A DNA stretch of 64,000 bases from Candidatus Udaeobacter sp. (GTDB taxonomy: Bacteria > Patescibacteriota > Patescibacteriia > Magasanikbacterales > GWA2-37-8), in the NCBI GenBank assembly GCA_035473115.1, contig DATION010000006.1, positions 64,521 to 128,520 of the forward strand. Reading direction: 5' to 3'. Under the pieces are notes generated by a model. It saw only the letters and a list, made by a program, of their open reading frames with translations, did no database searches and was not told the origin of the DNA. Shown here piece by piece: positions 5,791 to 53,068 of this stretch. A program made the translations under genes and the position numbers. Each line of letters opens with the position of its first letter. Position 1 is the first letter of the stretch.

Positions 5791-6157
5791 TTAGAAGCTA
5801 AAAACATAATAAATTTTTGCAAACCAAGTACCTCAAAATTAACGGTTCTCAAGTAAGTCCAAAAAGGAAACTACTTGCCTCGCTTAGCGAGGGGAAGAGA
5901 AAAGAGCAATCAAGATTTGATTTCTCTTTTTTCTTTCTAATCAGGTATTAGGAAGAAAAAAGTTTTCCAACAATTCAAAGATTGGAAAGGCACGTTGACA
6001 ACATAAATGTGACAAAGACCACACTTCAAAATTAACTTCGGTTAATGGAGAAGTACCCAAGTCTATTCTAAAAAAACTCGAGTTATTTCGAGTATAAATA
6101 AAAAATAAATCTATAATGATAACTTGTTCAGATTGAACAAATATTAAACTCTTTTTA

Positions 6158-7684
<1,527 letters not shown>

Positions 7685-14808: not shown

Positions 14809-14834
14809 CCTTTATAAAAAATAAAAAAATAATA

Positions 14835-21572: not shown

Positions 21573-21611
21573 GCAATCTATAATTAAAAATTAAGAATCA
21601 GCAAAAAATTG

Positions 21612-21620
21612 TGGTATAAT
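21612..21620 (+). promoter_or_regulatory. Extended -10 element (TGgTATAAT) 7 nt before the ATG of surface protein 3: possible leaderless transcript
   Basis: TGGTATAAT at 21612-21620, ATG at 21627, and no SD in between. Confidence 0.3.
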
Positions 21621-21626
21621 ATCTAT

Positions 21627-41029: not shown

Positions 41030-41698
41030 TTGAGATTTAACTCATTTATAGAAATTATGAAAAATTTTCATCGAGGCGACAAGTCTGGCGGCGGCAGAGA
41101 TCATAAAGGTTTTGGCAAGAGAAATTCCGGCGGCCATGGCTTTGGCGGTGGCAATAGGGGTTTTGGCGGCAGAGACGGTGAAAGACCAAATATGATGTTT
41201 AAGGCGGTCTGCAGCCAGTGCGGCAAAGATTGCCAATTGCCTTTTAAACCAAATGGCAACCGACCAGTTTTTTGCAGCACCTGTTTTGAAATCCAAAAAA
41301 ATGAAAACCCCGACAGATCAGAAAGAAAGAGTTTCAGTAAGCCTAAATTTGAGGATAAAAAATTGTTTGAAGCGGTTTGCGGCAACTGCGGCGATAACTG
41401 TTTAGTGCCGTTTCGTCCGTTTCCTGGCAAGCCAGTTTTTTGCAAGAAATGTTTTGATAAAGATGATAAGGTTGTAAATCATACTATTGTTAAAACTGAT
41501 AATAGTAATAATAAAAATTTCGAACAGCTTAAATCTGAGATTGAAATGATTAATATCAAGCTGGATAGAATTTTGCGAGAGCTGACCCCCAAAGAAGATC
41601 GTGAAGAAATCGAAGAAGAAGTTGAAGAAATCGTAAAAGAAGCTCCTAAAAAAACTGCTAAACCTTCCAAAAAATCAACTGCCAAAAAGAAAAAATAA
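41030..41698 (+). CDS. Gly/Arg-rich (RGG-like) protein with two CxxC...CxxCF zinc-ribbon repeats and a Lys-rich tail
   Basis: GFGGGNRGFGGRDGERP low-complexity N-terminus. Two copies of AVCxxCGxxCxxPFxPxxxxPVFCxxCF. KKSTAKKKK tail. Confidence 0.6.
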   Translation: MRFNSFIEIMKNFHRGDKSGGGRDHKGFGKRNSGGHGFGGGNRGFGGRDGERPNMMFKAVCSQCGKDCQLPFKPNGNRPVFCSTCFEIQKNENPDRSERKSFSKPKFEDKKLFEAVCGNCGDNCLVPFRPFPGKPVFCKKCFDKDDKVVNHTIVKTDNSNNKNFEQLKSEIEMINIKLDRILRELTPKEDREEIEEEVEEIVKEAPKKTAKPSKKSTAKKKK

Positions 41699-41710
41699 GA
41701 TATAATAAAA

Positions 41711-41742
41711 ACACTGTTCTACTTGGAGCGGTGTTTTTGTTT
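41711..41742 (+). terminator. Intrinsic terminator
   Basis: ACACTGTTCT...GGAGCGGTGT stem followed by TTTTTGTTT. Confidence 0.5.
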
Positions 41743-41773
41743 AAGTTGCATAAAATATGCTAAAGTATAATAT

Positions 41774-42031
41774 ATGAAAAATTCTTATACAGTTTATATT
41801 GTCGAATGCGCGGACAAGACTCTTTATACTGGCTGGACTAATGATTTAAGCAAAAGAATTTACGCGCATAATAACTCGGCTACGGGAGCCAAATATACCC
41901 GAGGCCGCCGCCCCGTAAAGTTGGTATATAAAGAAGTTGTGCCGAGTTTAAAAGCTGCTCTAAAAAGAGAAGCTGCTATTAAACGATTGTCTCGGAAAGA
42001 AAAAATGGTGTTAGTTGGATTTGTTTGTTGA
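41774..42031 (+). CDS. GIY-YIG domain protein (small stand-alone, UPF0213/YhbQ-like)
   Basis: YTVYIVEC...LYTGWTNDLSKRIYAHN GIY-YIG core. 85 aa. Confidence 0.75.
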   Translation: MKNSYTVYIVECADKTLYTGWTNDLSKRIYAHNNSATGAKYTRGRRPVKLVYKEVVPSLKAALKREAAIKRLSRKEKMVLVGFVC

Positions 42032-42103
42032 CGTTTTTATTTAGGTGTATAATGTTATTCAAGGGGAGGGTCGAACCTTTTTTAAACAACTAAAATAATT
42101 TAT

Positions 42104-42400
42104 ATGTCATTAAATTGGAAAATAATCTTGCCGATTATCGTCCTTGTTATCGGGGTCGGCGCGGTAATAAAATATAAAAATAGTTATCCAAGGCCAGCAG
42201 CAGAAAATTTGCAAACCCAGCAGCAGGAATCAGAAGAAAAATATTCATACGACCAGAATTCGCCGCCGCTCACCGACGCGGAAATAAACGCTTTTGTGAA
42301 GGCTGCCAGCATTGAATCGGCTGTTGAGACTGAAGAAGAAAAAGATAGTGTGTTAGTAACTTCGGATAATCAAGCTTTAAATAATTTTAATAATTTATAG
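42104..42400 (+). CDS. Hypothetical small membrane-anchored protein
   Basis: N-terminal TM helix, then an acidic tail. Confidence 0.4.
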   Translation: MSLNWKIILPIIVLVIGVGAVIKYKNSYPRPAAENLQTQQQESEEKYSYDQNSPPLTDAEINAFVKAASIESAVETEEEKDSVLVTSDNQALNNFNNL

Positions 42401-42461
42401 TTTTAGAGAAAGTTCTTTAATAGTATTTTCTCAGCAAGCTATAGCATAAGACATAATATAT

Positions 42462-43601
42462 ATGTACCATCAAGTCTCCAAAAGGGCAGTCGGTTTAGCA
42501 ATGACATTTGCTTTGTTGGCCAATGTGGCAGCATTGCCTGTTTTAGCCGAAGAAACAGGTTCTGCTTCTACTGTGGTAAAAACCAGATCAGAAGTTAATT
42601 TTTGTACTCGTTTAGAACAGTCTTCTACCAAACTAGACAGTAACATGGCTGATCGAACAAAAAAATTAGACGATCAATCTAATTTAAGAAATACTAATTT
42701 AGAAAAAAATCGCTCTGATCGCGATGAAAAGTTAACTGAACAGAGATCTAATTCTGATAAAAATGTTGCTGAGCGTTACGCTAAAATGGAAGGCAAAGCA
42801 AAAAATGATGCTCAAAGAATCGCTCTAGAAAATTTCCATACAGCCATGCTAGCTGCTCTTAACACCAGAAAAGCGGCTTTTGATGCTGCTCGGACCACTT
42901 TTCGAGCCGGTATAGATGAAGCGATTGCTGCTCGCAAAGCTGCTATACAGTCTGCCGTAAGATCTTTCCAGACAGCTTTAAAAGATGCTGAAACAAAAGC
43001 TAAAGCTGATTGTGCGGGTGGAGTTGCTCCGGCAACTGCTAAGACCAATTTTGAAACTGCTGTCAAAACTGCTCGGGAAAAATTTGCGGCTGATCGCAAA
43101 GCGGTAGAAAGATTAGGTGTTAATTTAAAAACATTAACTGACGCGCGCAAAACAGCTCTAGACAAAGCTCGGGCTGACTTTAAAGCTGCCGTTGAAAAAG
43201 CTACTAAAGACCTAAAAGCTGCTTTGCTGGCAGCTAGACCAGTTAAAACAATTAATAAAGATGGTGATCACAAGACAACAACAACTGTTAGAAATGACGA
43301 CAATCAAAAAACAGAAGAACCTAAAGAAGTTAAGCCGGAACATGAACCTAAAAAGGTTGCCTTACAAATTGTCGGCTCTGCTTTTCAACCACTAAGTCAA
43401 TCTGTGGTCAAAGGCGATACGGTTGTTTGGACAAACAATGATTCTGTACCTCACACTGTAACGGCGGCTGACGGATCATTTGATAGTGGCACTATCTCTC
43501 CGGGAGCTTCTTATAGTCACACTTTTACTTCAGTTGGAACTGTTAGTTATTCTTGCGCGTTTCATCCTTCAATGCATGGCAGTGTAACTGTAACTGAGTA
43601 G
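42462..43601 (+). CDS. Secreted Ala/Lys-rich coiled-coil protein with C-terminal type-1 copper (cupredoxin/plastocyanin-like) domain
   Basis: Signal peptide and a ~230-aa amphipathic helical region. C-terminal domain with Cu ligands H (VPHTVTA) and C-x2-H-x4-M (YSCAFHPSMHG). Confidence 0.75.
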   Translation: MYHQVSKRAVGLAMTFALLANVAALPVLAEETGSASTVVKTRSEVNFCTRLEQSSTKLDSNMADRTKKLDDQSNLRNTNLEKNRSDRDEKLTEQRSNSDKNVAERYAKMEGKAKNDAQRIALENFHTAMLAALNTRKAAFDAARTTFRAGIDEAIAARKAAIQSAVRSFQTALKDAETKAKADCAGGVAPATAKTNFETAVKTAREKFAADRKAVERLGVNLKTLTDARKTALDKARADFKAAVEKATKDLKAALLAARPVKTINKDGDHKTTTTVRNDDNQKTEEPKEVKPEHEPKKVALQIVGSAFQPLSQSVVKGDTVVWTNNDSVPHTVTAADGSFDSGTISPGASYSHTFTSVGTVSYSCAFHPSMHGSVTVTE

Positions 43602-43614
43602 TAAATTTACAGTT

Positions 43615-46047
43615 ATGTTTATAGCCCGCCTGAAACAATCGCTAAATATTAAATATTTCATGGCGGGCTATTTGTGCCTGTTGGTATTATTGGCATCTTT
43701 TTACTTTAAAGACTTGGTAATTTTTGCGGATGGAATTTTATTGGTAGCGCTTTATACTGGTTTTGATCTTTTATGGACCTATGCCCGAGACCGAGTCTGG
43801 TATTTGCCGACATCAGCTTGGATATCCGGTTTTGTTTTAACAATTGGCGCTTTTCCTAAACCGCCGCTGTTAGTTTTAATCGTTCTTCCTTTACTGGCCG
43901 TAGCTTCAAAACAGCTGCTGCATTTTGGTAAAAATCGTCATTTGTTTAATCCGGCTGCTTTTGCTTTGGCAGTAATAAGTTTGTTTAATCCAGCTGTTTC
44001 TTGGTGGGCCGTGGCCGGAGCAGTATTGCCTACAATTGCCGGTCTGCAAAAATTAGATTTGGGAATGTGGTTGTTTTTGTTTACATTTTTTGCGGCTCTA
44101 ATTATTTTGTGGAAACAAAATCGTTGGCATATTACTTTGCCTTTTTTATTTTCTTATGCTTTTTTTATCGGAGTGTTTTCTTTGGTTAACGGCGTAGTTT
44201 TGGGCAGGTTGCCGAATGTCCTTTTTTTTCAGATAGCCAATGGCGCAGTTCTTTTCTTTTCTACGGTAATGGTGATTGAGCCGATTACTTCAACTTTTTC
44301 AACTAAGCGGCAGGAAATATTATATGGAGCGATGGTTGGTCTGGCAGCTGTAGTGATAATTTATTTTTCTCGTAAGTTTAATTTGGTTAATTTAGACCCG
44401 TTGGTTTTTGGACTTTTAAGTGGAAATTTAATAGCCGGACTTATGTTTTTGCCGGCCCGAAAATTAGCTAAGAATTCATCTGTTAAAAAAGGCTGTTCAA
44501 GTTGTGTTGATTGCAGTTGCAAAGAAGCTGCGCCGGCAAAAATTTCCAGAGAGCCCTCTTATTGGTTTAGAGATGTGCCGGACCAAAATCGGTTTCCGGT
44601 TTTACAAGGTGATAAAGAATTTGATGCCGTAATTGTGGGTGGCGGTATTGCCGGTGTAGCGGTGGCATATTTTTTGGCAAAAAATGGCTTGAGCGCGGCG
44701 GTGCTTGAAGCCGGCACTATCGGCAGCGGTGATTCCAGCTATACTACCGCTTGCGCTACTCGTTTTCTTGATTCGGTTGATGCCAGTTTAAAAGCTTGGG
44801 AAAGCAGCGCCGAAGCTATCGCGATGCTGAAAAAAATAGTTGAAGAAGAGAATATAGATTGCGATTGGCAAGATGTTGATACGATCTGTTTTTCTCGGGA
44901 AACAGATAAAAAATCTTTGAATAATTTTTTGGCCACAGCGCAAAAATTTCAATCTAAGGACAGCTCAATTGAATATTTAGTTAAAGATGAAGCCAGCGCT
45001 TCGGTTGGTGTTCCCGTATCGGCAGCTTATCAAAAAAAATCCGCTGAAGGCATGTTTCATATGCGCAAGCTTTTAATGGCTTTGGCAGAAAGAGCAATAA
45101 AAAACGGAGCTTTATTTTTTGAAGATAGCGAGGCTACTAATTTTACTTTTGGTGATCAGGTCGTAGTTAAAACAAAAAAGGGGGGTATCAAGGCAAAATG
45201 GCTTATTGTCGCCACTGGTTTGCCGCCAGTAAAGTTTTTTCCGGCAGTTAGCAAATTGCTGCGCAGTGCAGTTAGTTATGTTATTGATGTAAAGTTTGCA
45301 GAAAAACCGCCGTTTGCTAAAGCATTTTTTTGGGATGATCAAGATCCATACCATTATTTTCGTTCAGTTGCTGAAAATGAATTTATTTTGGGCGGTGAAG
45401 ATTGGAAAACAAATAGCTCTAAGCCGGATTTAAATCCGCATTTGCAATTGGAAAAATGGTTTAAAAATCTTGTTGGCAGACAGGCATCGTTTAAAGTAGT
45501 TAATAGTTGGCAAGGTTCACTTTTTTATACGCCAGATACTTTGCCTCTGGTCGGGCCTCATCCGAAATACGGAAAAAATATTATTTTTTTAACTGGCTGG
45601 GCTGGGAACGGCACAGCGCAAGGTGTTTTTGCGGCTAGTATGGCAGTTAGTATTATTCAGAAAAAAAATAATCCTTATTATCATCTGTTTGCCTGCGATC
45701 GCAAGTTGTCTTGGCCAGTTGAAAATAATTCAGGTAATTTGTCTGTTTTAGCAAGTGTTGAGACTGGCGCGCTGGCAAAAGAATATTTAGAAAATAAAGG
45801 CAAAATTTTGGAAGTGGCCGGGCAAAAATTAGCGGTGATAAAAACTAACGGGAAGATCAAAGCTTTTTCAGCTCTCTGTCCACACCTTGGCTGTGCTGTT
45901 GGCTGGAATGACACCGAAAACACTTGGGATTGCCCTTGCCACGGGTCACGTTTTGAGTCTGATGGTTCACTTAAGAATGGTCCGGCTAAACGCGGGCTTG
46001 ATCCGGTGGAAATTAAGCTAGAAAATGATCAGATTAAAATTGTTTAA
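43615..46047 (+). CDS. Three-module membrane redox protein: RnfD/NqrB-like polytopic domain + FAD-dependent oxidoreductase + Rieske [2Fe-2S] domain
   Basis: [12 protein letters not shown] and [25 protein letters not shown] resemble the RnfD motifs GQNPFNPAM and [31 protein letters not shown] Cys cluster. [22 protein letters not shown] Rossmann motif. CPHLGC...CPCHGS Rieske motif. Confidence 0.75.
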   Translation: [810 protein letters not shown]

Positions 46048-46148
46048 AGTTGAAATTTTCTATTGAAAAAACTTTCATCCCAATGTAACCTACAGTAGGT
46101 TGAAAGCCATATCTTTATTCATTAGATAACCAATAATTTTGAACCAAT

Positions 46149-47012
46149 ATGGAAAGTTTGTGCGCAGTATGTGGGAAAAATCATCCTACCGGAGCATGTG
46201 TTGACCAGTCAAGAAAAGAAGTAGAGCAAAACGCTGAGCGTCGTTTGCCAGGAATTAACAAAACAGAAGGTAGAGGGGGATTAAAAGGACTTCTTAATAA
46301 AGATAAAAAACTTTTAACTGTATTGGACGTTTTACAGATGGATGCAATTGCAGAAAACACCCAGCGAGATTCAGATGCTATGCTTAGAGCGCAAGAGGCG
46401 GAAACAGAAAGAAAACAAAGAATGTATAAGCGTGGTCCAGAGAATAATTCTGCCGAAATAAAAGAGCAGAACCTTCAGGCTTTTGTTGCCACTCATGAGC
46501 CTTGGCTGATTGCCAAAAAAGATAGCGCAGGCATAGATACCCATGATTTATTGGTAAGATTGGGGCTTGAACCAAAGCCAGCCGGATCAGATTTTAAGGC
46601 ATTTGCTAAGCTGTTTTATGAAATTGAGCCTCCAGCAGGCTGGTCTAAAACCACTGATAATTATGATACTGAAGTCAGAGATGAAGATGGTAATATAGTT
46701 TTGGAACAGTTTTTTAAAGGCGCATTGTCAGGTATGAAAGCAGAATTAAAAACTTTATCACCTGTCAGTGAGTCCACACAAGAAATTAAAGCTAGAAAAT
46801 TACCAAAGAATTTTGTTGACAGACTGGCGGCTTTGGAAAAAATGAAGAATGACAAGCAGGATCAGGAATTATATAAAATCACAATCGGCAGATTAGCAGA
46901 GATGGCCGCAGGTAGGCTAGAAGCCGGGTTTAAAACCGGTGCTTATAACGGCTGGCAAGAGGCAGATTTTTTGGAATTGCTAAAACAGCTAGGAGAAGAG
47001 CGGGTTGGGTAA
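46149..47012 (+). CDS. Hypothetical protein with N-terminal CxxC...C motif
   Basis: 287-aa ORF, CAVCGKNHPTGAC. No other motif recognised. Confidence 0.45.
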   Translation: MESLCAVCGKNHPTGACVDQSRKEVEQNAERRLPGINKTEGRGGLKGLLNKDKKLLTVLDVLQMDAIAENTQRDSDAMLRAQEAETERKQRMYKRGPENNSAEIKEQNLQAFVATHEPWLIAKKDSAGIDTHDLLVRLGLEPKPAGSDFKAFAKLFYEIEPPAGWSKTTDNYDTEVRDEDGNIVLEQFFKGALSGMKAELKTLSPVSESTQEIKARKLPKNFVDRLAALEKMKNDKQDQELYKITIGRLAEMAAGRLEAGFKTGAYNGWQEADFLELLKQLGEERVG

Positions 47013-47045
47013 AAGCAGAGATGAATTTGAAAGTGCAATTAGGGC

Positions 47046-47074
47046 ATTGACAAAAAGGTCATTTTGTGGTATGA
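47046..47074 (+). promoter_or_regulatory. Consensus sigma70-like promoter with extended -10 for the cold-shock gene
   Basis: TTGACA (47046-47051), a 17-nt spacer ending in TGG, then TATGAT (47069-47074). About 80-nt leader. Confidence 0.6.
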
Positions 47075-47152
47075 TATATTCATCAAAAATCTCCCAGGTG
47101 GAAAAATAGTCGACTCCTACCGGCGATTAATTTATTCATTATATTTTTTATT

Positions 47153-47353
47153 ATGACAGGTGTTATAAAAACATTAGTTGTAGAAAAGAATTTTGGTTTC
47201 ATCACTCCAGATGACGGTTCGAAAGATATCTTCTTTCACGCTACCGCTTTGAGTGGTATCCAATTTTCTGAATTAAGACAAGGTGACAGAGTGTCATTTG
47301 ACGTTGAAGATTCAGAAAAAGGCCCTCGCGCTGCAAACGTTGTTCGCGCTTAA
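47153..47353 (+). CDS. cspA: Cold-shock domain protein
   Basis: GFGFITPDDGSKDIFFHATAL (RNP1 and RNP2 motifs), 66 aa. Confidence 0.9.
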   Translation: MTGVIKTLVVEKNFGFITPDDGSKDIFFHATALSGIQFSELRQGDRVSFDVEDSEKGPRAANVVRA

Positions 47354-47371
47354 TAGGTCTAAATCTACAAA

Positions 47372-47402
47372 CAAAAAATCCTCTTTAGAAGAGGATTTTT
47401 TG
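47372..47402. terminator. Bidirectional terminator between csp and the convergent YcnI-like gene
   Basis: ATCCTCTT-cta-AAGAGGAT with an A-run before and a T-run after. Confidence 0.6.
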
Positions 47403-47413
47403 TTGTTTTTTTA

Positions 47414-48079
47414 TTAAGCTTTCTTTGTTTTTATTAGGGCAGTTAAAGCTATTAAGGTAGCAATAACGCTGAGCCAAATTGCTATATTTGTTTTTAAGTT
47501 CTCTGAGGTAGTGTTTGAGTTGACAGAGGTCGTAGGCGTTAAGTCATCGATCACTTCTGTTTTTGAGAATGGTCCAAACTTAGAAAAATCCATTTTATCA
47601 TTACTGTTTTTAGTTTGGGTTTGGTTGGGGTCTTGGTCCCAAGAAATTACTGTGCCGTCCGCGTAGGTCTGATAGACCTTCCAATTTAAAACAGTTGGCT
47701 GGCTTGGCACTTTGGCGCTAAAGACAAATTCATCACGCTGATCGGCAGGAACTCTGCCGCCACTCCAAATTATCTCGGTTATTTTTTGTTCATCAACCAT
47801 CCTACCGTCATCATCTTTGGTTTTGTTTCCCGTGATCTGTTTTTTGAGTTCAATTTTCCAGCCCGGTTTTACATTAGGCATGATAAAGCTTAAGCCTTCA
47901 GGCAAAACCAGACGAACTTTAGTGGTAGCCACCGGTTTTTCTGATGGAATTCCTAAATTAAAAGTTTGAAATTTGCCAATTCCAGCTGTATTTGGTTTTA
48001 CCACCGCGTGGGCCATGGCTTGGTTAGCAAAGAGTAATGATGCTGCTAGAATTCCCAGTCCAACTATTTTTTTATTCAT
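47414..48079 (-). CDS. YcnI-like (DUF1775) secreted copper-binding protein with C-terminal TM anchor
   Basis: Signal peptide ...ANQAMA then HAVVKPNTAGIGKFQTFNLGIPSEK, resembling the DUF1775 N-terminus HVxVxP...Y/FQTFxxRVPNEK. His is the first mature residue. C-terminal helix IAIWLSVIATLIALTALI. Confidence 0.6.
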   Translation of the reverse strand: MNKKIVGLGILAASLLFANQAMAHAVVKPNTAGIGKFQTFNLGIPSEKPVATTKVRLVLPEGLSFIMPNVKPGWKIELKKQITGNKTKDDDGRMVDEQKITEIIWSGGRVPADQRDEFVFSAKVPSQPTVLNWKVYQTYADGTVISWDQDPNQTQTKNSNDKMDFSKFGPFSKTEVIDDLTPTTSVNSNTTSENLKTNIAIWLSVIATLIALTALIKTKKA

Positions 48080-48083
48080 ACTT

Positions 48084-48623
48084 TCATTTATTAGTAAATA
48101 TCTTTTTTGTTAAATATATTATAGCTCCTAACATTACAGTAGTTGCCGCATAAAATAACCAGTTTATTTGGGCAGATGATTTTACTGCGGTAGAATCTTT
48201 ATCTAATCGAATGTCATAGGCTAAGTTAAAACTTTGAAAACTGTTGGTTTGGATTGGAGTGCCGGTAAGTTTAATAGTGTAAATTCCTTTATGCGGAAAA
48301 GTATAGGTAATTGCCGGGGCAAAAATACCTTTATAGGATGATCTGCTTTTGGAAAGAGGGGAGGAAAATATTATTTTATTAGTGGTTAAGTCTGTAATAG
48401 AAGCAATACAATTACAGTTATCCGGTACAAATGTTTTTTTGGCATCAGTAATTAAAAATAGCAGATCGGCCGGCTGGCCAACTATTGGGTCATCATCGGG
48501 GTTGATATGCAGCAGTGCATAAATTGAACCGTCGGCCATTAGCTCATGAGCTTGAGCGGGGGAGCAAAGAAAAAATAAACTTGCCCATAACAAAACTATG
48601 AAAGTGGTAAGTTGTTTATGCAT
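48084..48623 (-). CDS. Secreted protein with His as first mature residue (His-brace/CopC-like candidate) and C-terminal TM anchor
   Basis: Signal peptide ...CSPAQA then HELMADGSIYALLH. CNC pair. C-terminal helix. Confidence 0.45.
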   Translation of the reverse strand: MHKQLTTFIVLLWASLFFLCSPAQAHELMADGSIYALLHINPDDDPIVGQPADLLFLITDAKKTFVPDNCNCIASITDLTTNKIIFSSPLSKSRSSYKGIFAPAITYTFPHKGIYTIKLTGTPIQTNSFQSFNLAYDIRLDKDSTAVKSSAQINWLFYAATTVMLGAIIYLTKKIFTNK

Positions 48624-48637
48624 ATGGTAATTTTATA

Positions 48638-48660
48638 ATCTACTACAAATTGTAGTAGAT
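48638..48660. promoter_or_regulatory. 23-bp perfect palindrome (operator candidate) in the divergent intergenic region
   Basis: ATCTACTACAA-A-TTGTAGTAGAT, 11-bp arms, located 15 bp upstream of the start of the minus gene 48084-48623. Contains TACAaatTGTA. Confidence 0.5.
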
Positions 48661-48778: not shown

Positions 48779-49216
48779 ATGAAGGCTAAAAAGATAATTC
48801 TCTCGGTTTTTTTGGTTTTGGTCGTGGCTGCTTATGCTGTTTATCAGCGTTTAGGCGGTTCATCTCAGTCTAATACTCGTACTACAGAAACAAACACCAA
48901 TACTAATACAAACAACAATCAAAATAATCAGGTTGCCTATAAAGACGGCGAATATACCGGAACTGACGCAGACACGATTTTTGGCAAAGTACAAGTTTCT
49001 GTATTGGTTAAAGATGGCAAAATTGTCGATGTTAAATTTTTAGATTTTCCTAAGGATCAGCTTACTTCCAAAAGTATCAGTAATCACTCTTTGCCTATTT
49101 TAAAGACCGAAGTGATTGCCGCTCAAAATGAGAATGTTGATATTGTTTCCGGAGCTACCCAGACTAGCGAAGGCTTTAAACAATCTTTGGCTTCAGCTTT
49201 AGTAAAAGCAAAATAA
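48779..49216 (+). CDS. Secreted FMN-binding domain protein (flavinylation substrate)
   Basis: N-terminal TM/signal, T/N-rich linker, FMN_bind domain YKDGEYTGTDADTIFGKVQVSVLVKDGKIVDVKFL...VDIVSGATQTSEG with the S-G-A-T flavinylation motif. Confidence 0.8.
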   Translation: MKAKKIILSVFLVLVVAAYAVYQRLGGSSQSNTRTTETNTNTNTNNNQNNQVAYKDGEYTGTDADTIFGKVQVSVLVKDGKIVDVKFLDFPKDQLTSKSISNHSLPILKTEVIAAQNENVDIVSGATQTSEGFKQSLASALVKAK

Positions 49217-49230
49217 GTAGAATAAATTTT

Positions 49231-49977
49231 GTGCTCAAACAAACCAGACTGTTAATGGGCATGCCTATTACCGTAGAAATTTGCGATTTGTCCGCTAATT
49301 CAGAAGCGGTAGATAAAGTTTTTGATTACTTTGATTACGTGGACAAAAAATTCAGTACTTATAAAGACGATAGCGAGATAAGCGGAATTAATAATGGAAA
49401 AATTCGGGAGAAAGATTATAGCGCTGACATGAAAGAGGTTTTTGGGCTTTGCGAGCAGACAAAAAAAGAAACAAACGGATATTTTGATATCCAGTTGAAA
49501 AATAAAACATACGACCCGTCAGGCTTGGTAAAAGGCTGGGCAGTTTATAATGCCGCCGAAATTTTACGTAAACTTGGCTTTAATAATTTTTACGTCGAAG
49601 CCGGAGGTGATATTCAGGTGAGTGGCCAAAATAGCCAAGGCCAAAATTGGCGTATTGGCATCCGCCATCCTTTTAATGAATCGCAAATAATCAAGACTGT
49701 CTCGTTAAGTAGCGAAGGCGTAGCCACTTCCGGAACTTATATTCGCGGCCAGCATATCTATAACCCATACGATGACAAAAAACCGATTACGGAAATTGTC
49801 AGTTTGACCGTCATCGGGCCAAATATTTATGAAGCTGATCGGTTTGCTACAGCGGCTTTCGCTATGGGCAAAAAGGGGATTAATTTTATTGAAAGTTTAA
49901 AAAATTTAGAAGGGTATATGGTGGACAAAGACGGTGTGGCTACTATGACCAGTAATTTTGAAAAATATTTAGCTTAG
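49231..49977 (+). CDS. apbE: FAD:protein FMN transferase (ApbE family)
   Basis: LMGMPITVEI, FSTYKDDSEISGIN, GGDIQVSG and VATSGTYIRGQHIYNP are ApbE hallmarks. Confidence 0.85.
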   Translation: MLKQTRLLMGMPITVEICDLSANSEAVDKVFDYFDYVDKKFSTYKDDSEISGINNGKIREKDYSADMKEVFGLCEQTKKETNGYFDIQLKNKTYDPSGLVKGWAVYNAAEILRKLGFNNFYVEAGGDIQVSGQNSQGQNWRIGIRHPFNESQIIKTVSLSSEGVATSGTYIRGQHIYNPYDDKKPITEIVSLTVIGPNIYEADRFATAAFAMGKKGINFIESLKNLEGYMVDKDGVATMTSNFEKYLA

Positions 49978-49993
49978 TGAGTGTTTAAATTAT

Positions 49994-51514
49994 ATGCTTA
50001 AATTCATTGATCAATTCCTGAATCGGATCACGATGTATCGGTTGGTTCTTTATTATGTATCCGGTCTGTGGGTGATCGCATTTATTTTCAGTTTATTGCA
50101 CATTTTGCCGCATGCGCCGTTTGATTTGTTAGTCTCGGCTATAATTATTCACGCTGTCGGTTTTTTAGTTAATGCTATTTTTGCTCGTATTTTTCAGGTT
50201 CCCAGCAATCTGGAATCAGTATATACGACCGGCTTTATTCTGGCTCTCATTATTTCTCCGGCCCAGCCGTTTAGCCGGCTGTTGTTTTTGGGTTTAGCCG
50301 CAACTCTGGCTATGGCTTCAAAATATATTATTGCGATTAATAAAAAGCATCTGTTTAACCCGGCAGCTTTTGCCATCGCATCTGCAGCTATTGTCGCCGG
50401 ACAATCAGCCAATTGGTGGGTGGGCAATCTGTATATGGCGCCATTTGTTCTGCTCGGAGGATTTTTAATGGTCAAAAAATTGCGCCGCTGGGATTTGGTT
50501 TTAAGTTTTTTTGTAGTCGCTATTGCTGTTATCTCAACCTCTTTCTTTTTAAAGAAAAGCGATATGATGCTGATATTAAAAGAGGTTCTGTTTTATTCGC
50601 CGATGTTCTTTTTTGCCTGTGTGATGCTTACCGAACCGATGACTACACCGCCATCGAGAAACTTAAGAATAATTTATGGCGCTTTGACCGGTTTTTTGTT
50701 TGCTCCGTTTATGCATCTGGGGTCAATTTATTCAACGCCCGAATTAGCTCTTTTGGCCGGTAATATTTTTGTGTATATTGTCAGCCCAAAGTATAAATTA
50801 ATTTTAGAATTAAAAGAAAAAGTTTTAATTGCTCCGGATGTGTATGATTTTTTGTTTAAGCAAGATAAAAAAATGGTATTTAAGCCGGGCCAGTATATGG
50901 AATGGACTTTAGGGCATGAAGACCAGGATTCCAGAGGTATGAGACGGTATTTTACAATTGCTTCTTCTCCGGCCGAAGAATATTTAAGAATGGGTGTAAA
51001 ATTTTATCCTAATGCCAGCAGTTTTAAAAAATCTATCTTGCATCTGGAACCAGGCGACAAGATTATTGCTTCTCAACTGGCCGGTGATTTTGTTTTGCCT
51101 AGTAATAAAGATAAAAAATTAGTTTTTATAGCCGGCGGTATTGGCATTACTCCTTTTCGGAGCATGGTAAAAGATCTTTTGGATAGAAAAGAAAAAAGAG
51201 ATATAATTTTGATTTATTCAAACTACAGACCAGTCGATATCGTTTATCGAGATGTTTTGGATCAGGCCGAGCGAGAACTGGGAATTAAAACAATTTATAC
51301 GGTGACAGATTTGGCATCTTGTCCGGATGATTGGCCATGTGAACGAGGTTTTATTGATGAACAAAAAATTATGCGTTTAATCCCGGATTATAAAGAAAGA
51401 ACTTTTTATCTATCCGGTTCTCATTCAATGGTAGTTGCGTTTGATGAAAATCTGCGCAAGATAGGAATTAAAAAAATGCAGATTAAAAAAGATTTTTTCC
51501 CTGGGTTTGTTTAA
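49994..51514 (+). CDS. RnfD/NqrB-like membrane domain fused to an FNR-type FAD/NAD(P)H oxidoreductase domain
   Basis: KHLFNPAAFAIAS and VMLTEPMTTPPSRNLRIIYGALTGF (RnfD-like). C-terminal RRYFTIASSP (RxYS FAD motif) and FIAGGIGITPFRSM (NAD-binding). Confidence 0.75.
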   Translation: MLKFIDQFLNRITMYRLVLYYVSGLWVIAFIFSLLHILPHAPFDLLVSAIIIHAVGFLVNAIFARIFQVPSNLESVYTTGFILALIISPAQPFSRLLFLGLAATLAMASKYIIAINKKHLFNPAAFAIASAAIVAGQSANWWVGNLYMAPFVLLGGFLMVKKLRRWDLVLSFFVVAIAVISTSFFLKKSDMMLILKEVLFYSPMFFFACVMLTEPMTTPPSRNLRIIYGALTGFLFAPFMHLGSIYSTPELALLAGNIFVYIVSPKYKLILELKEKVLIAPDVYDFLFKQDKKMVFKPGQYMEWTLGHEDQDSRGMRRYFTIASSPAEEYLRMGVKFYPNASSFKKSILHLEPGDKIIASQLAGDFVLPSNKDKKLVFIAGGIGITPFRSMVKDLLDRKEKRDIILIYSNYRPVDIVYRDVLDQAERELGIKTIYTVTDLASCPDDWPCERGFIDEQKIMRLIPDYKERTFYLSGSHSMVVAFDENLRKIGIKKMQIKKDFFPGFV

Positions 51515-51529: not shown

Positions 51530-52108
51530 ATGAATACTGATTCAGATGAAAAATTAGTAGCTTTGTATCTGCAGGGAGATGAATCTGCTTTGCGAATTTT
51601 AGTACAAAAATATACCAGTGGTCTTTATAACTTTACGGCTCAGTTTGTCGGTTACGGACAAAACGCCGAAGACGTAGCTCAAGAAGCTTTTATAAAAGCT
51701 TGGAAAAGTTTATCTAAATTTGATTTGACTAAAAAATTTAAACCGTGGCTTTATCAAATTGCCAGAAATTCGGCAATTGATTTTTTACGTCAGCGCAAAT
51801 TAACTATTTCTTTGTCTGATACTTTGGCCGATGATGAAACCAAAAATGAAGCGGATTACTTGGTAGATCCGGCGCCCTTGCCGCTAGCGCAATCAATAAA
51901 TTTGGAAACAAAAGAAGCTGTACAAAATTTAATTAAGTCTTTGCCGTTAATTTATGGCACAGTACTAAAATTATATTACCTAGAAGAGTTTTCTTTGCCA
52001 GAAATTGCCCAAGTTTTAGGGGAACCTTTAGATACGATCAAGAGCCGTCATCGCCGCGCTCTGCTAAGATTAAGAAAATTAACCGCTGAATCTAAATTGT
52101 TTAGCTAA
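51530..52108 (+). CDS. ECF-type RNA polymerase sigma factor (sigma-70 regions 2 and 4)
   Basis: VQKYTSGLYNF...AEDVAQEAFIKAWK (region 2) and LPEIAQVLGEPLDTIKSRHRRALLRLRK (region 4). Confidence 0.85.
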   Translation: MNTDSDEKLVALYLQGDESALRILVQKYTSGLYNFTAQFVGYGQNAEDVAQEAFIKAWKSLSKFDLTKKFKPWLYQIARNSAIDFLRQRKLTISLSDTLADDETKNEADYLVDPAPLPLAQSINLETKEAVQNLIKSLPLIYGTVLKLYYLEEFSLPEIAQVLGEPLDTIKSRHRRALLRLRKLTAESKLFS

Positions 52109-52155
52109 GCCTGATGCTGCACCTTAAATGCTTTTATTAGCGTACTATTAAGTAT

Positions 52156-52587
52156 ATGGACAAGTTTGAGCAAATTATCCGTTCTGCCATAAGTAGTGAA
52201 AGCGTTGCCAGCCAGCCGCCTGGTTTTTTGGCTGAAAAAATACTAATAGCTATTGAAAATAAGAGACGTTTTTATGTTTTGGCTAAGTTGATAATCTATA
52301 GTTTTAGTACGCTATTTTTTTTAGTCGGTTTGATATTGATTTGGCAGGCAGAAAAAATAAATATTATAAATTCGCCGGCTGTTAATTTATTGTCTTTACT
52401 GTTTAGCGATTTTGCGGTGGTTGTTAGTTATTGGCAAGATTACGCCTTATCTTTGATAGAATCTTTTCCGGTTGTGTCGGTGGTTGCCGTGGCCGTTTTT
52501 GTTTGGGCAGTCTGCGCTTCTCTGTGGATGACCGTACGAACTTATTTTTTATTTACTCATCGTTTTATTAAACGCATTCAAGCTTAG
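52156..52587 (+). CDS. Putative membrane anti-sigma factor
   Basis: Immediately downstream of the ECF sigma gene. Cytoplasmic N-terminus followed by TM helices. Confidence 0.4.
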   Translation: MDKFEQIIRSAISSESVASQPPGFLAEKILIAIENKRRFYVLAKLIIYSFSTLFFLVGLILIWQAEKINIINSPAVNLLSLLFSDFAVVVSYWQDYALSLIESFPVVSVVAVAVFVWAVCASLWMTVRTYFLFTHRFIKRIQA

Positions 52588-52609
52588 CTTTAATTTTAAA
52601 ATACTATAT

Positions 52610-53068
52610 ATGACTAATGACATAAAAAAAATTATTGGGACCAAAGCGGTTAAAATATCCTTAACAATTTTTGCCGCGCTGATTGTAATCATAATTATAT
52701 TCTGGTTTGGTATGTTGGTAGGATTCCGAAAAGCTTCTTTTAGCTATCAATGGGGGAAAAATTACCGTAATCTTTTTGAAGCCAAATCAGAACATAAATT
52801 TTCCCGTGAATTGCGGGGTCGAGGTTTTTTTGACGCTCATAGCGCCGTTGGTTCAGTCATTAAAGTTGATACTAGCACATTAATTATCAAAGGCGATGAT
52901 AATATTGAAAAAAATATTTTTATTAGCGACCGCACCGTAATTCGCCGAGGCCAAGACAGTGTTATGTTCAATGATCTCAAAGCTGATGACAGAGTTGTTG
53001 TGCTGGGTGTACCTAGCAGTACTGGCCAGATTGAAGCCAGATTAATTAGGGTTATTTCTAAACCATAA
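52610..53068 (+). CDS. Hypothetical secreted protein with a conserved ~70-aa beta-rich C-terminal domain (paralog of 57074-57514)
   Basis: N-terminal TM anchor. C-terminal GSVIKVDTSTLIIKGDD...DLKADDRVVVLG...GQIEARLIRV aligns to the C-terminus of ORF 57074. Confidence 0.45.
   Translation: MTNDIKKIIGTKAVKISLTIFAALIVIIIIFWFGMLVGFRKASFSYQWGKNYRNLFEAKSEHKFSRELRGRGFFDAHSAVGSVIKVDTSTLIIKGDDNIEKNIFISDRTVIRRGQDSVMFNDLKADDRVVVLGVPSSTGQIEARLIRVISKP

What the first reader, a model, noticed from the sequence alone, without database searches (positions are those of the whole stretch)
47414..48623. Pair of membrane-tethered secreted proteins whose mature N-terminus is histidine: YcnI-like (DUF1775) plus a second His-brace candidate
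Both minus-strand genes encode signal peptides cleaved (AxA rule) directly before a His: ...QAMA|HAVVKPNTAGIGKFQTFNLGIPSEK and ...PAQA|HELMADGSIY. The first matches the YcnI/DUF1775 copper-binding N-terminus pattern. Both end in a single C-terminal TM helix. N-terminal His-brace copper sites are used by CopC/YcnI-type chaperones and by lytic polysaccharide monooxygenases. Together with the neighbouring cupredoxin and flavin operon this forms a copper-handling group.
Basis: partly seen in the sequence, partly recalled or inferred. Interest (0 to 1): 0.55.

Follow-up and report, generated by a model that had tools for sequence, protein, structure and literature searches.

The report
YcnI plus new N-terminal-histidine partner protein
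Two adjacent genes encode membrane-tethered surface proteins that each start with a histidine after signal-peptide removal: one is a typical YcnI copper-binding protein, the other founds a large unnamed family from Patescibacteria that elsewhere is nearly always encoded next to YcnI and a membrane reductase, hinting at how bacteria might reduce copper outside the cell.

Summary
Genes 48084-48623(-) and 47414-48079(-) form a two-gene operon with a promoter, a conserved operator and a terminator. Both products have a signal peptide ending AxA directly before His, and a C-terminal membrane anchor.

Protein 1 is a YcnI-type DUF1775 protein (Pfam E 1.8e-27) that keeps all three copper-site residues of B. 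subtilis YcnI (H24, E47, W147).

Protein 2 is not CopC and matches nothing in Pfam, NCBIfam or PDB sequences. It belongs to a large unannotated family (1,691 representative clusters). Named members come from Patescibacteria. The N-terminal His, a second His (H39) and a PDDDP loop are essentially invariant. A CxC pair is kept in most members. The predicted fold (pLDDT 91) is a small beta-sandwich that most resembles periplasmic copper proteins, though weakly.

In 26 distinct loci, DUF1775 follows this family in 21. A transmembrane electron-transfer module is adjacent in 24. In 18 loci that module is a Ferric_reduct heme-b protein. In 6, including this window, it is an FMN_bind-ApbE-RnfD/FNR flavin module.

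Best reading: protein 2 is a copper-binding partner of YcnI, and reductase coupling for Cu(II) reduction is likely in the family. The link to the flavin module is weaker, because that module usually occurs without the pair. No metal binding has been shown.

The parts
48084..48623 (-). P2: 179-aa founding member here of an unnamed N-terminal-His family. Signal peptide is residues 1-25, beta-sandwich ectodomain 26-~145, TM anchor 151-177.
   Evidence: ORF. No Pfam, NCBIfam or PDB sequence hit. Family of 1,691 representative clusters. Invariant H26, H39, P42, D44, C70 and C72. Ectodomain model pLDDT 91.
48549..48623 (-). P2 signal peptide (residues 1-25, ...SPAQA|H).
   Evidence: Read from sequence. 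Family statistics: Ala at -1 in 157/160, and 150/160 have classical signal-peptide features. Cleavage is inferred, not predicted with SignalP.
48093..48173 (-). P2 C-terminal transmembrane anchor (residues 151-177), followed by KKIFTNK.
   Evidence: Helix 151-177 in the AlphaFold model. Hydrophobic stretch followed by basic residues, read from the sequence.
47414..48079 (-). P1: YcnI-type DUF1775 protein, 221 aa. Signal peptide is residues 1-23. Copper-site residues are H24, E47 and W147. TM anchor is about residues 199-216.
   Evidence: Pfam PF07987, E 1.8e-27, 96.9 bits, profile position 1 = H24. Aligns to YcnI 7me6/7mek from chain residue 1, E 8e-14. Ligand identities from PMC8424229.
48649..48677 (-). 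Sigma-70-like promoter TTGACA-17-TACAAT of the P2-P1 operon.
   Evidence: 11/12 match. The same TTGACA and spacing are conserved in L008-L012.
48638..48660 (.). Perfect 23-bp palindrome ATCTACTACAATTTGTAGTAGAT overlapping the -10 hexamer. Core is TACTACA-N3-YGTAGTA. Probable repressor operator.
   Evidence: Read from sequence. Unique in the window, 0.01 expected by chance. Conserved at the same position in all five other type-A loci and absent from 41 other loci, including 17 flavin-trio loci without P2.
47370..47404 (.). Hairpin terminator (16-bp stem) that closes the P2-P1 operon and, on the other strand, cspA.
   Evidence: Terminator scan. The hairpin lies 10 bp after the P1 stop codon.
48779..51514 (+). 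Divergent NQR/RNF-like flavin module: FMN_bind (48779-49216, motif VSGATQTS), ApbE (49231-49977) and an RnfD-like/FNR fusion (49994-51514). Possible electron source for the pair; this is inferred only.
   Evidence: Pfam. Adjacent to P2 in 6/6 loci of this lineage, but found without P2 in about 10 other loci. Described as an 'NQR/RNF-like system' of unknown acceptor in PMC8238504.
42462..43601 (+). Secreted 379-aa protein with a C-terminal plastocyanin/azurin-type cupredoxin (ligand pattern H...C..H..M). Plausible copper client; not syntenic in relatives.
   Evidence: Pfam PF00127/PF13473. Sequence. The block 41030-47012 is absent between CspA and TerC in L010 and L011.

Best explanation
The two genes form one operon encoding two outward-facing, C-tail-anchored metal-binding proteins.

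P1 is an orthodox YcnI. After signal-peptide cleavage, the free amine and imidazole of H24, together with E47 and W147, form the 'mono-histidine brace' that binds one Cu(II).

P2 belongs to a new family, found so far in Patescibacteria, that plays the role of a second copper site next to YcnI. Its new N-terminus H26 lies across a beta-hairpin from invariant H39 and beside an invariant acidic loop (PDDDP). This is a layout suited to a two-histidine brace for Cu(II). In B. subtilis, YcnI exchanges Cu(II) with the His-brace CopC domain of YcnJ. P2 most likely fills that partner slot in genomes that have no CopC or CopD nearby.

Across the family, the P2-YcnI pair is wired to a membrane reductase. 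This suggests that bound Cu(II) is reduced to Cu(I) on the outer face and handed to thiol or His sites: CxC in P2, and in other genomes an HxCC membrane protein and YtkA-like domains. The copper would then go to cuproprotein loading or uptake. In this window the Ferric_reduct gene is absent, and the neighbouring NAD(P)H-flavin module is the candidate electron source.

Shown: gene anatomy, family membership of P1, residue conservation, fold class and gene-neighbourhood statistics.
Inferred: signal-peptide cleavage, metal identity for P2, the H26/H39 geometry, electron flow, and the direction of copper transfer.
For: - P1: DUF1775 at E 1.8e-27, with H/E/W aligned to YcnI His27/Glu50/Trp137. All 16 DUF1775 partners in related loci keep H/E/W.
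- P2 conservation: H26 163/163, H39 165/165, P42 165/165, D44 163/165, D60 164/165, C70 165/165, C72 164/165. Ala at -1 in 157/160.
- P2 geometry: strands 2-6 and 9-16 (mature numbering) are joined by a DG turn, which puts H1 opposite H14.
- P2 fold: the top fold matches are mostly copper proteins. FetP/P19/FtrA give TM 0.65-0.68, CrdA 0.61/0.69, and CopC, PmoD and an AA10 LPMO follow.
- Operon: 4-bp gap between the genes, one promoter, one terminator.
- Context in 26 distinct loci: DUF1775 lies within two genes downstream in 21. A transmembrane electron-transfer module is adjacent in 24, of which 18 are Ferric_reduct proteins, often 1-7 bp from P2 or overlapping it.
- Ferric_reduct proteins: invariant His in TM3 and TM5, His-rich outer tails or YtkA-like domains.
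- Rosetta-stone fusion of P2 with a His-rich HxCC membrane module.
- A third N-terminal-His anchored protein (PKD type) is present in type-B clusters.
- Cupredoxins sit in or near clusters.
- Literature: YcnI exchanges Cu(II) with a His-brace partner, and the reduction step is an open question (PMC12362106; PMC13344008).
Against: - No experiment or metal-binding predictor was run on P2, so copper is inferred from context and motif.
CxC/D60 probably lie at the opposite pole of the domain.
- Fold matches are weak (E 1e-4 to 1e-2), and the best one (DUF4426) has no known function.
- CxC and D60 are absent in the Saccharimonadales subgroup, so they cannot be essential to the shared function.
- In this window there is no Ferric_reduct, PKD or HxCC gene.
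- The flavin trio usually occurs without P2-YcnI, and the operator travels with P2 only. The type-A adjacency may therefore be inherited synteny.
- The ApbE has no signal peptide, which clouds the outward flavin chain.
- No importer is encoded beside the pair.
- The Ferric_reduct name and the P19-like fold also fit iron.
- The sampling of loci was not random.
Confidence: 0.6

Rival explanations
1. The pair serves reductive iron handling rather than copper handling. Copper on YcnI/P2 would be a cofactor, as in P19/FetP/FtrA systems, or the N-terminal His plus acidic loop of P2 would bind Fe(III). The membrane reductase would reduce that iron for uptake.
For: The adjacent protein carries the Ferric_reduct domain. 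The best characterised fold matches are the Cu-dependent iron-uptake proteins FetP/P19/FtrA/Tp34. The PDDDP loop offers hard carboxylate ligands. Some NQR/RNF-like clusters sit by VIT1 iron transporters (PMC8238504). L011 and L012 have a Fur-family regulator nearby.
Against: YcnI is an experimentally shown Cu(II) protein, and all its ligands are kept here. No FTR1/EfeU-type iron permease is in any sampled cluster. There is no sequence similarity to P19. The motifs in partners (CxC, HxCC, Met/His-rich, YtkA-like) are typical of copper. Cupredoxins recur in the clusters. 'Ferric_reduct' names a heme-b TM fold that is also used for non-iron acceptors, for example MsrQ.
Confidence: 0.15
2. P2-YcnI is a plain Cu(II) capture and storage pair with no redox coupling. 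The adjacency to reductase genes would reflect co-regulation or shared membrane location, and in this window the flavin module is an unrelated neighbour.
For: The B. subtilis model needs no reductase (PMC12362106). L015 and L017 have the pair with no reductase nearby. The flavin trio mostly occurs without the pair, and the pair has its own operator.
Against: 18 of 26 loci from distant lineages keep a Ferric_reduct gene directly upstream, often with overlapping or abutting stop and start codons. The outer face of the reductase carries His-rich or YtkA-like metal motifs. The six loci that lack Ferric_reduct but have another module all have an alternative transmembrane electron-transfer module next door.
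Confidence: 0.15
3. The N-terminal-His proteins are catalytic copper centres, that is LPMO-like oxidases or peroxygenases, or O2/ROS-reducing enzymes. The membrane reductase would supply their electrons, and they would act on envelope or host-surface substrates of these episymbiotic bacteria.
For: A histidine brace plus an external electron supply is what LPMOs require (PMC10952591). An AA10 LPMO appears among the fold matches. PKD domains, common in polysaccharide-active proteins, accompany a third N-terminal-His protein.
Against: The P2 ectodomain is only about 120 aa, which is CopC-sized rather than LPMO-sized. The LPMO match is weak (TM 0.52). The site is inferred to face the membrane. YcnI and CopC-type sites show no relevant catalysis. 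No glycoside hydrolase or carbohydrate-binding genes are in the clusters.
Confidence: 0.06
4. P2 is not a metalloprotein. It would be an Ig-like envelope protein, for example a scaffold or adhesin, whose N-terminal His is conserved for structural or processing reasons.
For: There is no direct evidence of metal binding. The best fold hit (DUF4426) is uncharacterised. Ig-like folds are generic.
Against: A +1 His together with H39, D44 and the PDDDP loop is invariant across sequences only 27-54% identical to the window protein. The gene is tightly coupled to YcnI. P2 is fused to His/Cys-rich modules. Only about 2.6% of secreted proteins start with His.
Confidence: 0.04

Closest known systems
B. 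subtilis YcnI (DUF1775) with the CopC domain of YcnJ (ycnKJI operon)
   Same: P1 is a member of the same Pfam family. It has the same mono-His-brace residues, signal peptide and C-terminal anchor. As in B. subtilis, it is encoded next to a second extracytoplasmic protein with an N-terminal His. That operon is repressed (by YcnK) when copper is replete, and the operon here carries a probable operator over its -10.
   Different: The partner is not CopC (no Pfam, profile or hhalign similarity) and is a separate tail-anchored protein rather than a domain of a CopD transporter. No CopD or YcnK homologue was seen in the window. Across the family the pair is coupled to membrane reductases, which is not reported for ycnKJI (no 'reductase' or 'ferric' in PMC8424229).
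CopC / PcoC periplasmic copper chaperones (canonical histidine brace)
   Same: Small beta-sandwich, N-terminal His exposed by signal-peptide cleavage, a second invariant His, an acidic residue nearby, and a role as a Cu(II) site next to membrane proteins.
   Different: No sequence or profile match. Only weak fold similarity (5icu TM 0.47/0.56). The second His is 13 residues after the first, in the same hairpin, rather than in a C-terminal DxH motif. P2 also has an extra CxC and a C-terminal TM anchor.
PmoD (methanotroph copper protein)
   Same: Signal peptide, small cupredoxin/Ig-like ectodomain, C-terminal TM helix, and Cys-containing copper site. It appears among the fold matches (6cpd, TM 0.54).
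   Different: No sequence similarity. PmoD has no N-terminal His brace. Its genomic context (pmo operons) is different.
P19 / FetP / FtrA copper-dependent iron-uptake proteins
   Same: Best characterised fold matches (TM 0.65-0.68). They are periplasmic copper-binding beta-sandwiches that work with membrane redox or transport partners.
   Different: No sequence similarity. Their copper site uses internal His/Met, not the N-terminus. They pair with FTR1-type permeases, which are absent here.
N-terminal-His families found by 'signal strapping' (DUF4198, DUF6702, Ang-1, Ang-2; PMC12537917)
   Same: The same discovery logic and the same kind of site: a conserved His right after the signal peptide on an Ig-like domain attached to the membrane, binding Cu(II) or Ni(II).
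   Different: P2 matches none of them by Pfam or by profile search against PDB sequences. Those families are from Pseudomonadota and Actinomycetota and are linked to HupE/UreJ permeases, not to YcnI or reductases.
MsrPQ and eukaryotic Fre/STEAP metalloreductases (Ferric_reduct-fold membrane proteins feeding an outside acceptor); CcoG cupric reductase
   Same: Type-B clusters pair a Ferric_reduct heme-b membrane protein with extracytoplasmic partners, as MsrQ does with MsrP. Fre/STEAP reduce Cu(II) before uptake. CcoG shows that bacteria use dedicated cupric reductases.
   Different: The proposed acceptor here would be copper held on N-terminal-His proteins. There is no Mo enzyme and no Ctr1. 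CcoG is an unrelated Fe-S protein. None of this is encoded in the window itself.
NQR/RNF-like flavinylated systems (Meheust et al. 2021, PMC8238504)
   Same: The window's FMN_bind-ApbE-RnfD/NAD-binding fusion fits their definition exactly (PF03116 + PF00175 beside ApbE). They report the system mainly in Actinobacteria and CPR.
   Different: That paper names no acceptor and does not mention copper or DUF1775. Here the module sits beside a copper-protein operon in one lineage, but not generally.

Membership tests
DUF1775 / YcnI (P1) | Match to Pfam PF07987 above the gathering score | tested here: met
   96.9 bits against a cut-off of 25, E 1.8e-27, profile positions 1-135 of 146.
DUF1775 / YcnI (P1) | [quoted passage not shown] | tested here: met
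   H24 aligns with profile position 1 and with chain residue 1 of 7me6. Cleavage before it is inferred from AMA|H. An alternative AHA|V site exists.
DUF1775 / YcnI (P1) | Glu50 and Trp137 equivalents of the mono-histidine brace | tested here: met
   E47 in IPSEK and W147 in VISW align with Glu50 and Trp137 (roles from PMC8424229).
DUF1775 / YcnI (P1) | C-terminal transmembrane anchor | tested here: met
   IAIWLSVIATLIALTALI followed by KTKKA, read from the sequence.
DUF1775 / YcnI (P1) | 1:1 Cu(II) binding | not testable with these tools
   Needs ICP-MS, EPR or ITC on purified protein.
CopC (P2) | Match to Pfam PF04234, or sequence-profile similarity to solved CopC structures | tested here: not met
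   No Pfam family at E <= 0.1. The family profile against all PDB sequences gives nothing below E 1.9.
CopC (P2) | CopC fold | tested here: inconclusive
   5icu ranks 35th, TM 0.47/0.56, E 0.011. This is a generic Ig-like similarity.
Canonical histidine brace (P2; a site type, not a family) | His at +1 after signal-peptide cleavage, conserved in the family | tested here: met
   163/163 His. Ala at -1 in 157/160. 150/160 have classical signal-peptide features. Cleavage itself is inferred.
Canonical histidine brace (P2; a site type, not a family) | A second His side chain placed to complete the T-shaped N3 site | tested here: inconclusive
   H39 is invariant (165/165) and lies opposite H26 by hairpin register (strands 2-6 and 9-16, DG turn). 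No coordinates were available to measure distances.
Canonical histidine brace (P2; a site type, not a family) | Copper bound at the site | not testable with these tools
   Requires biochemistry or crystallography.
DUF1775 (P2 as a divergent member) | Profile-profile similarity to DUF1775 | tested here: not met
   hhalign probability 1.5%.
P19 / FetP / FtrA (P2) | Sequence or profile similarity, and an internal His/Met copper site | tested here: not met
   Fold TM is 0.65-0.68, but E is about 1e-3 and identity 8-15%. There is no profile hit to the PDB sequences of these proteins.
NQR/RNF-like flavinylated system (neighbouring operon) | RnfD/NqrB-like membrane domain fused to an NAD-binding domain (PF03116 + PF00175), encoded beside ApbE and an FMN_bind protein | tested here: met
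   Pfam hits. The FMN_bind protein has the SGAT flavinylation motif. The definition comes from PMC8238504.
NQR/RNF-like flavinylated system (neighbouring operon) | Extracytosolic ApbE (signal peptide or lipobox) | tested here: not met
   ApbE starts VLKQTRLLMGMPITVEI, 14 nt after the FMN_bind stop. It has no hydrophobic leader.
Ferric_reduct / MsrQ-like membrane reductase (type-B neighbours, not in the window) | PF01794 match and conserved heme-ligand His residues in the TM helices | tested here: met
   PF01794 hits. Invariant His in 'FxxLH' and in TM5 across 15 sequences. Absent from the window.

The most novel reading that the evidence does not exclude
The P2-YcnI pair, together with the PKD-type N-terminal-His protein and the HxCC membrane protein in other genomes, is the outer end of a dedicated bacterial outward-facing cupric-reductase pathway. 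A membrane heme-b reductase, or in this lineage the NAD(P)H-flavin NQR/RNF-like module, would pass cytoplasmic electrons to Cu(II) held on N-terminal-histidine proteins and release Cu(I) for uptake or cuproprotein loading. This would supply the missing reduction step of YcnI/CopC-type copper acquisition. It would also give the orphan NQR/RNF-like systems of CPR bacteria an acceptor.
Probability: 0.3. Interest if true: 0.75.

Novelty: new variant of a known kind. Interest (0 to 1): 0.6.

Why it matters
How bacteria take up copper is poorly understood. The YcnI/CopC proteins bind Cu(II) outside the cell. Recent B. subtilis papers state that where and how this copper is reduced is an open question, and that a dedicated membrane cupric reductase may be needed but is unknown in Firmicutes (PMC12362106, PMC13344008).

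This locus leads to a conserved gene cluster in Patescibacteria in which YcnI is encoded with a membrane reductase and with up to two further families of N-terminal-histidine proteins. None of these partner families is annotated. That gives concrete, small, expressible proteins with which to test extracellular copper reduction and relay. It adds a large family (about 1,700 clusters at 50% identity) to the short list of N-terminal-His metalloprotein candidates. It also suggests a first candidate acceptor for the orphan NQR/RNF-like flavin systems.

It matters less if P2 turns out to be merely a CopC substitute with no redox coupling.

Tried and rejected
- P2 as CopC, DUF1775, DUF4198, DUF6702, PCuAC or YtkA: no Pfam or NCBIfam hit at E <= 0.1.
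- P2 family profile against all PDB sequences: nothing.
- hhalign of P2 against DUF1775, the PKD protein and the Ferric_reduct C-terminal domains: probabilities 1.5%, 0.4% and 19%. None is significant.
- The first genome scan with the broad alignment failed for lack of a conserved stretch.
- Flavin trio as a dedicated partner of the pair: rejected after the reverse search showed the trio mostly without P2-DUF1775 and the operator only at P2 promoters.
- Cupredoxin and RnfD-DAO-Rieske as conserved parts of the group: no homologues in the flanks of type-A relatives.
- Lipoprotein reading of P2 (Cys20): the context FFLC is not a lipobox, and the Cys is not conserved.
- H111 (FPHKG) as a ligand: not conserved; E, Q and K are the commonest residues there.
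- Riboswitch or other RNA element in the divergent intergenic region: nothing in Rfam.
- Ferric_reduct, PKD-type or HxCC homologues elsewhere in the window: none.
- CopY/BlaI-type 'TACAnnTGTA' box: the spacing here is 3 nt, not 2, so the regulator remains unassigned. This comparison rests on my own knowledge of the cop box.
Full report
OBSERVATION

P2 is at 48084-48623 (179 aa) and P1 at 47414-48079 (221 aa). A good sigma-70-like promoter, TTGACA-17-TACAAT, sits at 48677-48649. It lies about 20 nt upstream of the P2 start codon. Only 4 bp separate the P2 stop from the P1 start. A 16-bp-stem hairpin terminator (47370-47404) follows P1. This is therefore a two-gene operon, P2 then P1.

Both proteins have a Lys-containing n-region, a hydrophobic core and A-x-A directly before a His (QAMA|HAVV and PAQA|HELM). 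Both end in a hydrophobic helix followed by basic residues. In P2 this is helix 151-177 in the model. SignalP was not available, so cleavage is inferred. P1 also has a second rule-compatible site (AHA|V) that would remove the His.

PROTEIN 1

P1 is an orthodox YcnI-type DUF1775 protein.
- It matches Pfam PF07987 at 96.9 bits (cut-off 25, E 1.8e-27), and profile position 1 falls on H24.
- It aligns with the crystallised B. subtilis YcnI (7me6/7mek) from chain residue 1.
- The YcnI paper defines the copper site as the amine and imidazole of His27, plus Glu50 and Trp137, which it calls the 'monohistidine brace' (PMC8424229). In the alignment these residues are H24, E47 and W147.
- All 16 DUF1775 proteins encoded beside P2 homologues in other genomes also keep H/E/W.

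PROTEIN 2

P2 matches nothing known by sequence.
- There is no Pfam or NCBIfam family at E <= 0.1, which rules out CopC, PCuAC, YtkA, DUF4198 and DUF6702.
- There is no PDB sequence match, either with the single protein or with a 48-sequence family profile.
- hhalign against DUF1775, the PKD-type proteins and the C-terminal domains of the Ferric_reduct proteins gives probabilities of 1.5%, 0.4% and 19%.

The word-indexed search found only 15 relatives. The exhaustive profile search found 1,691 representative clusters at E <= 1e-3 and 1,301 at E <= 1e-10. Every member that carries a name is a 'hypothetical protein'. Named and GTDB-titled members are from Patescibacteria: Woesebacteria, Levybacteria, Paceibacterota, Magasanikiibacteriota, Woykebacteria, Nomurabacteria and Saccharimonadales. 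The exact window protein is labelled 'Candidatus Udaeobacter sp.' in its record. Given the relatives and the window's gene content, for example a T4SS-pilin-domain protein, that label is probably a binning error. I could not classify the window's 16S rRNA gene.

CONSERVATION

In 165 sequences, the His after the signal peptide is present in 163 of 163 that cover the column, and Ala precedes it in 160 of 163. The other near-invariant residues are H39 (165/165), P42 (165/165), D44 (163/165), D60 (164/165), C70 (165/165) and C72 (164/165). H111 is not conserved.

In the 160 sequences with enough upstream residues to score, the -3 position is A, V, T or S in 152 and Ala is at -1 in 157. The median pre-His length is 24 residues, and 150 of 160 pass a simple test for a classical signal peptide. 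For scale, only about 2.6% of secreted proteins start with His (PMC12537917).

The most distant subgroup, in Saccharimonadales (L019-L024), keeps A|H and LHINPDDDP but lacks CxC and D60. The N-terminal His, H39 and the acidic loop are therefore the universal core. CxC/D60 is a feature of the main subfamily, to which the window protein belongs.

STRUCTURE

A full-length model had mean pLDDT 81. A model of the mature ectodomain built on 100 sequences reached pLDDT 91 and pTM 0.83. It is an eight-stranded beta-sandwich.

In mature numbering, strands 2-6 and 9-16 form a hairpin around a D-G turn. By strand register, H1 (H26) lies opposite H14 (H39), with the PDDDP loop next to them. That layout would suit a two-histidine brace. 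By the same up-down reasoning, CxC and D60 sit at the other pole, and the chain exits towards the membrane from the His pole. These geometric statements are inference, because no coordinates were available.

Foldseek against the PDB gives weak matches (E 1e-4 to 1e-2), and copper-handling sandwiches dominate the list. FetP/P19/FtrA reach TM 0.65-0.68 and CrdA 0.61/0.69, followed by CopC, PmoD and an AA10 LPMO. The uncharacterised DUF4426 ranks first. This fixes the fold class but not membership of any family.

GENE CONTEXT

I examined 26 distinct loci, counting the window. They came from a pattern scan of GTDB genomes and from homologues chosen for long contigs. I annotated them with Pfam and with phmmer.
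- A DUF1775 gene lies within two genes downstream of the P2 homologue in 21 of 26 loci.
- A transmembrane electron-transfer module is adjacent in 24 of 26 loci.

In 18 loci ('type B') that module is a membrane protein with a Ferric_reduct domain directly upstream on the same strand. Its stop codon often abuts or overlaps the P2 start.
- The protein has invariant His residues in TM3 ('FxxLH') and in TM5, as expected for a bis-His heme b.
- It carries either two C-terminal outward domains with sub-threshold YtkA-like matches (E 7e-5 to 9e-3 in 4 of 6) or, in Saccharimonadales, a His-rich tail.
- Type-B clusters often contain a PKD-domain protein that also has a signal peptide ending in A|H, a conserved HxAGxPPFFK N-terminus and a C-terminal anchor.
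- They also often contain a small membrane protein with His-rich and HxCC motifs.
- About a quarter of the top-scoring family members listed are ~275-aa forms. The five I inspected are fusions of P2 with that HxCC module.
- Cupredoxin genes occur inside or beside two of these clusters, one of them next to a ZIP transporter.

In 6 loci ('type A': the window and its closest relatives L008-L012) there is no Ferric_reduct gene. Instead an FMN_bind-ApbE-RnfD-like/FNR operon lies beside the P2 operon. It is directly divergent in five of these loci and separated by two genes in L011. This trio fits the 'NQR/RNF-like system' of Meheust et al. They found 127 such clusters, mainly in Actinobacteria and CPR. 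They proposed NAD(P)H-driven electron export to the FMN-binding domain and named no acceptor. Their text never mentions copper or DUF1775 (PMC8238504).

COUNTER-CHECK

I searched metagenomes with the RnfD-FNR protein. The trio is well conserved. However, none of the roughly ten loci with at least 3 kb upstream carries P2 or DUF1775, and the upstream genes are unrelated.

The 23-bp perfect palindrome overlapping the P2 -10 hexamer has the core TACTACA-N3-YGTAGTA.
- It is unique in the window.
- It is conserved at the same position in all six type-A P2 promoters.
- It is absent from the 41 other loci, including every trio locus without P2.

So the pair has its own, unidentified repressor, and the flavin module is not dedicated to it. 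The type-A adjacency could be functional, with one electron-transfer module replacing another. It could equally be inherited synteny within one lineage. I give the flavin link for this window about 0.3.

The window's cupredoxin gene (42462-43601) encodes a signal peptide and a type-1 ligand pattern H...C..H..M. The RnfD-DAO-Rieske fusion follows it (43615-46047). Both lie in a block that is missing between CspA and TerC in L010 and L011. They are not a conserved part of the group, although the cupredoxin is a plausible copper client.

MECHANISM

[quoted passage not shown] The authors state that where the metal is reduced remains to be determined (PMC12362106). The 2026 follow-up argues that a dedicated membrane cupric reductase may be needed, and notes that the known one, CcoG, has no homologue in Firmicutes (PMC13344008).

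The most economical reading has three parts:
1. P1 binds Cu(II) as YcnI does.
2. P2 is its second copper site, a functional stand-in for CopC built on a different domain.
3. In the wider family the pair receives electrons from a membrane reductase, so that Cu(II) becomes Cu(I). The Cu(I) would then pass to thiol or His sites: CxC, HxCC and YtkA-like domains. YtkA domains are implicated in CuA assembly in B. subtilis.

Parts 1 and 2 are well supported by sequence and context. Part 3 is inferred from gene order alone.

The rival explanations are:
- Iron handling. The Ferric_reduct name, the P19-like fold and the acidic loop support it. The copper ligands of YcnI, the thiol motifs, the cupredoxins and the absence of iron permeases argue against it.
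- A non-redox capture or storage pair.
- An LPMO-like catalytic role.
- No metal binding at all.

Unexplained points:
- The ApbE has no signal peptide.
- No importer is encoded nearby.
- The electron donor of the Ferric_reduct proteins is unknown.
- The regulator that binds the operator is unknown.

VERDICT

P1 is a known kind of protein. P2 is a new, large, unannotated family of a known kind: an N-terminal-His extracytoplasmic metal-site protein. No metal binding or electron transfer has been demonstrated.

Noticed in passing
window 48638-48660; L008 5913-5929, L009 5937-5953, L010 5889-5905, L011 5906-5922, L012 5881-5897: Conserved inverted repeat TACTACA-N3-YGTAGTA overlapping the -10 of the P2 promoter, with a conserved GGGGATAA box upstream of the -35. 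It is found only at P2 promoters. The regulator is unidentified. The half-sites resemble TACA/TGTA boxes of CopY/BlaI-type repressors but have 3-nt spacing.
   Followed up: partly
L001 7712-8608, L005 7174-8052, L007 3563-4456, L025 5670-6614, L026 5251-6099, L027 7110-7928, L028 5249-6115, L029 4570-5451: A third family of tail-anchored proteins with His at the predicted mature N-terminus (A|HxAGxPPFFK), followed by two PKD domains. It is encoded in the same clusters as P2 and DUF1775 and is absent from the window.
   Followed up: partly
L001 6546-6974, L003 6537-6965, L025 4555-4896, L027 4540-4875; fused in L007 6001-6840, L013 5860-6831, P0025, P0026, P0039, P0041: A small multi-TM protein with His-rich stretches, an H-x-C-C motif and a C-terminal (K/R)(S/A/P)PP tail. 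It is either a separate gene between P2 and DUF1775 or is fused to the C-terminus of P2. It is a possible membrane Cu(I) site.
   Followed up: partly
window 43615-46047 (and 42462-43601): An 810-aa fusion of an RnfD/NqrB-like membrane domain, a DAO-type FAD oxidoreductase and a C-terminal Rieske 2Fe-2S domain. It lies directly after a secreted coiled-coil protein ending in a type-1 cupredoxin. In L044 a homologue of that cupredoxin sits directly upstream of an RnfD-FNR homologue. This may be a second extracytoplasmic electron-transfer system.
   Followed up: partly
window 49231-49977 (also L009, L010, L012, L030, L034-L046): The ApbE flavin transferase of the NQR/RNF-like module is only 247-248 aa and has no signal peptide or lipobox. 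Its presumed substrate, the FMN_bind protein (motif VSGATQTS), has an N-terminal membrane anchor that should place it outside.
   Followed up: partly
window 51530-53068; L008, L009, L012, L031: An ECF sigma factor, a 143-aa membrane anti-sigma-like protein and a 152-aa anchored protein follow the RnfD-FNR gene in several relatives. This suggests that they belong to the flavin operon.
   Followed up: partly
window 6151-7682: A complete 16S rRNA gene (1412 bits) with no 23S gene in the following 56 kb, that is, unlinked rRNA genes. The record label for the exact P2 protein is 'Candidatus Udaeobacter sp.', while all named relatives of P2 are Patescibacteria, so a binning or label error is likely.
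   Followed up: no
L018 4390-5461: In one Saccharibacteria locus, P2 is followed by DsbB-like and DsbA-like genes instead of DUF1775. This could bear on the redox state of the CxC pair.
   Followed up: no
L011 6431-9807, L012 6539-9174; L001 3242-4399, L003 3243-4400: A YibE/F-family membrane protein recurs beside P2 clusters. In L011 and L012 it comes with a Fur-family regulator and a ZnuA-like binding protein plus an ABC ATPase. These are neighbours with a metal-homeostasis flavour.
   Followed up: no
window 47019-47402: Sub-threshold match to the cspA thermoregulator 5'-UTR (42.8 bits against a gathering score of 78, E 4e-9) covering the leader and the cold-shock gene at 47153-47353. That gene shares the bidirectional terminator with the P2-P1 operon.
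   Followed up: no
window 12766-26111: A run of very large secreted or surface proteins (680 aa with T4SS-pilin and Big_5 domains, then 2255 aa and 1500 aa), typical of Patescibacteria surface machinery. Not examined.
   Followed up: no
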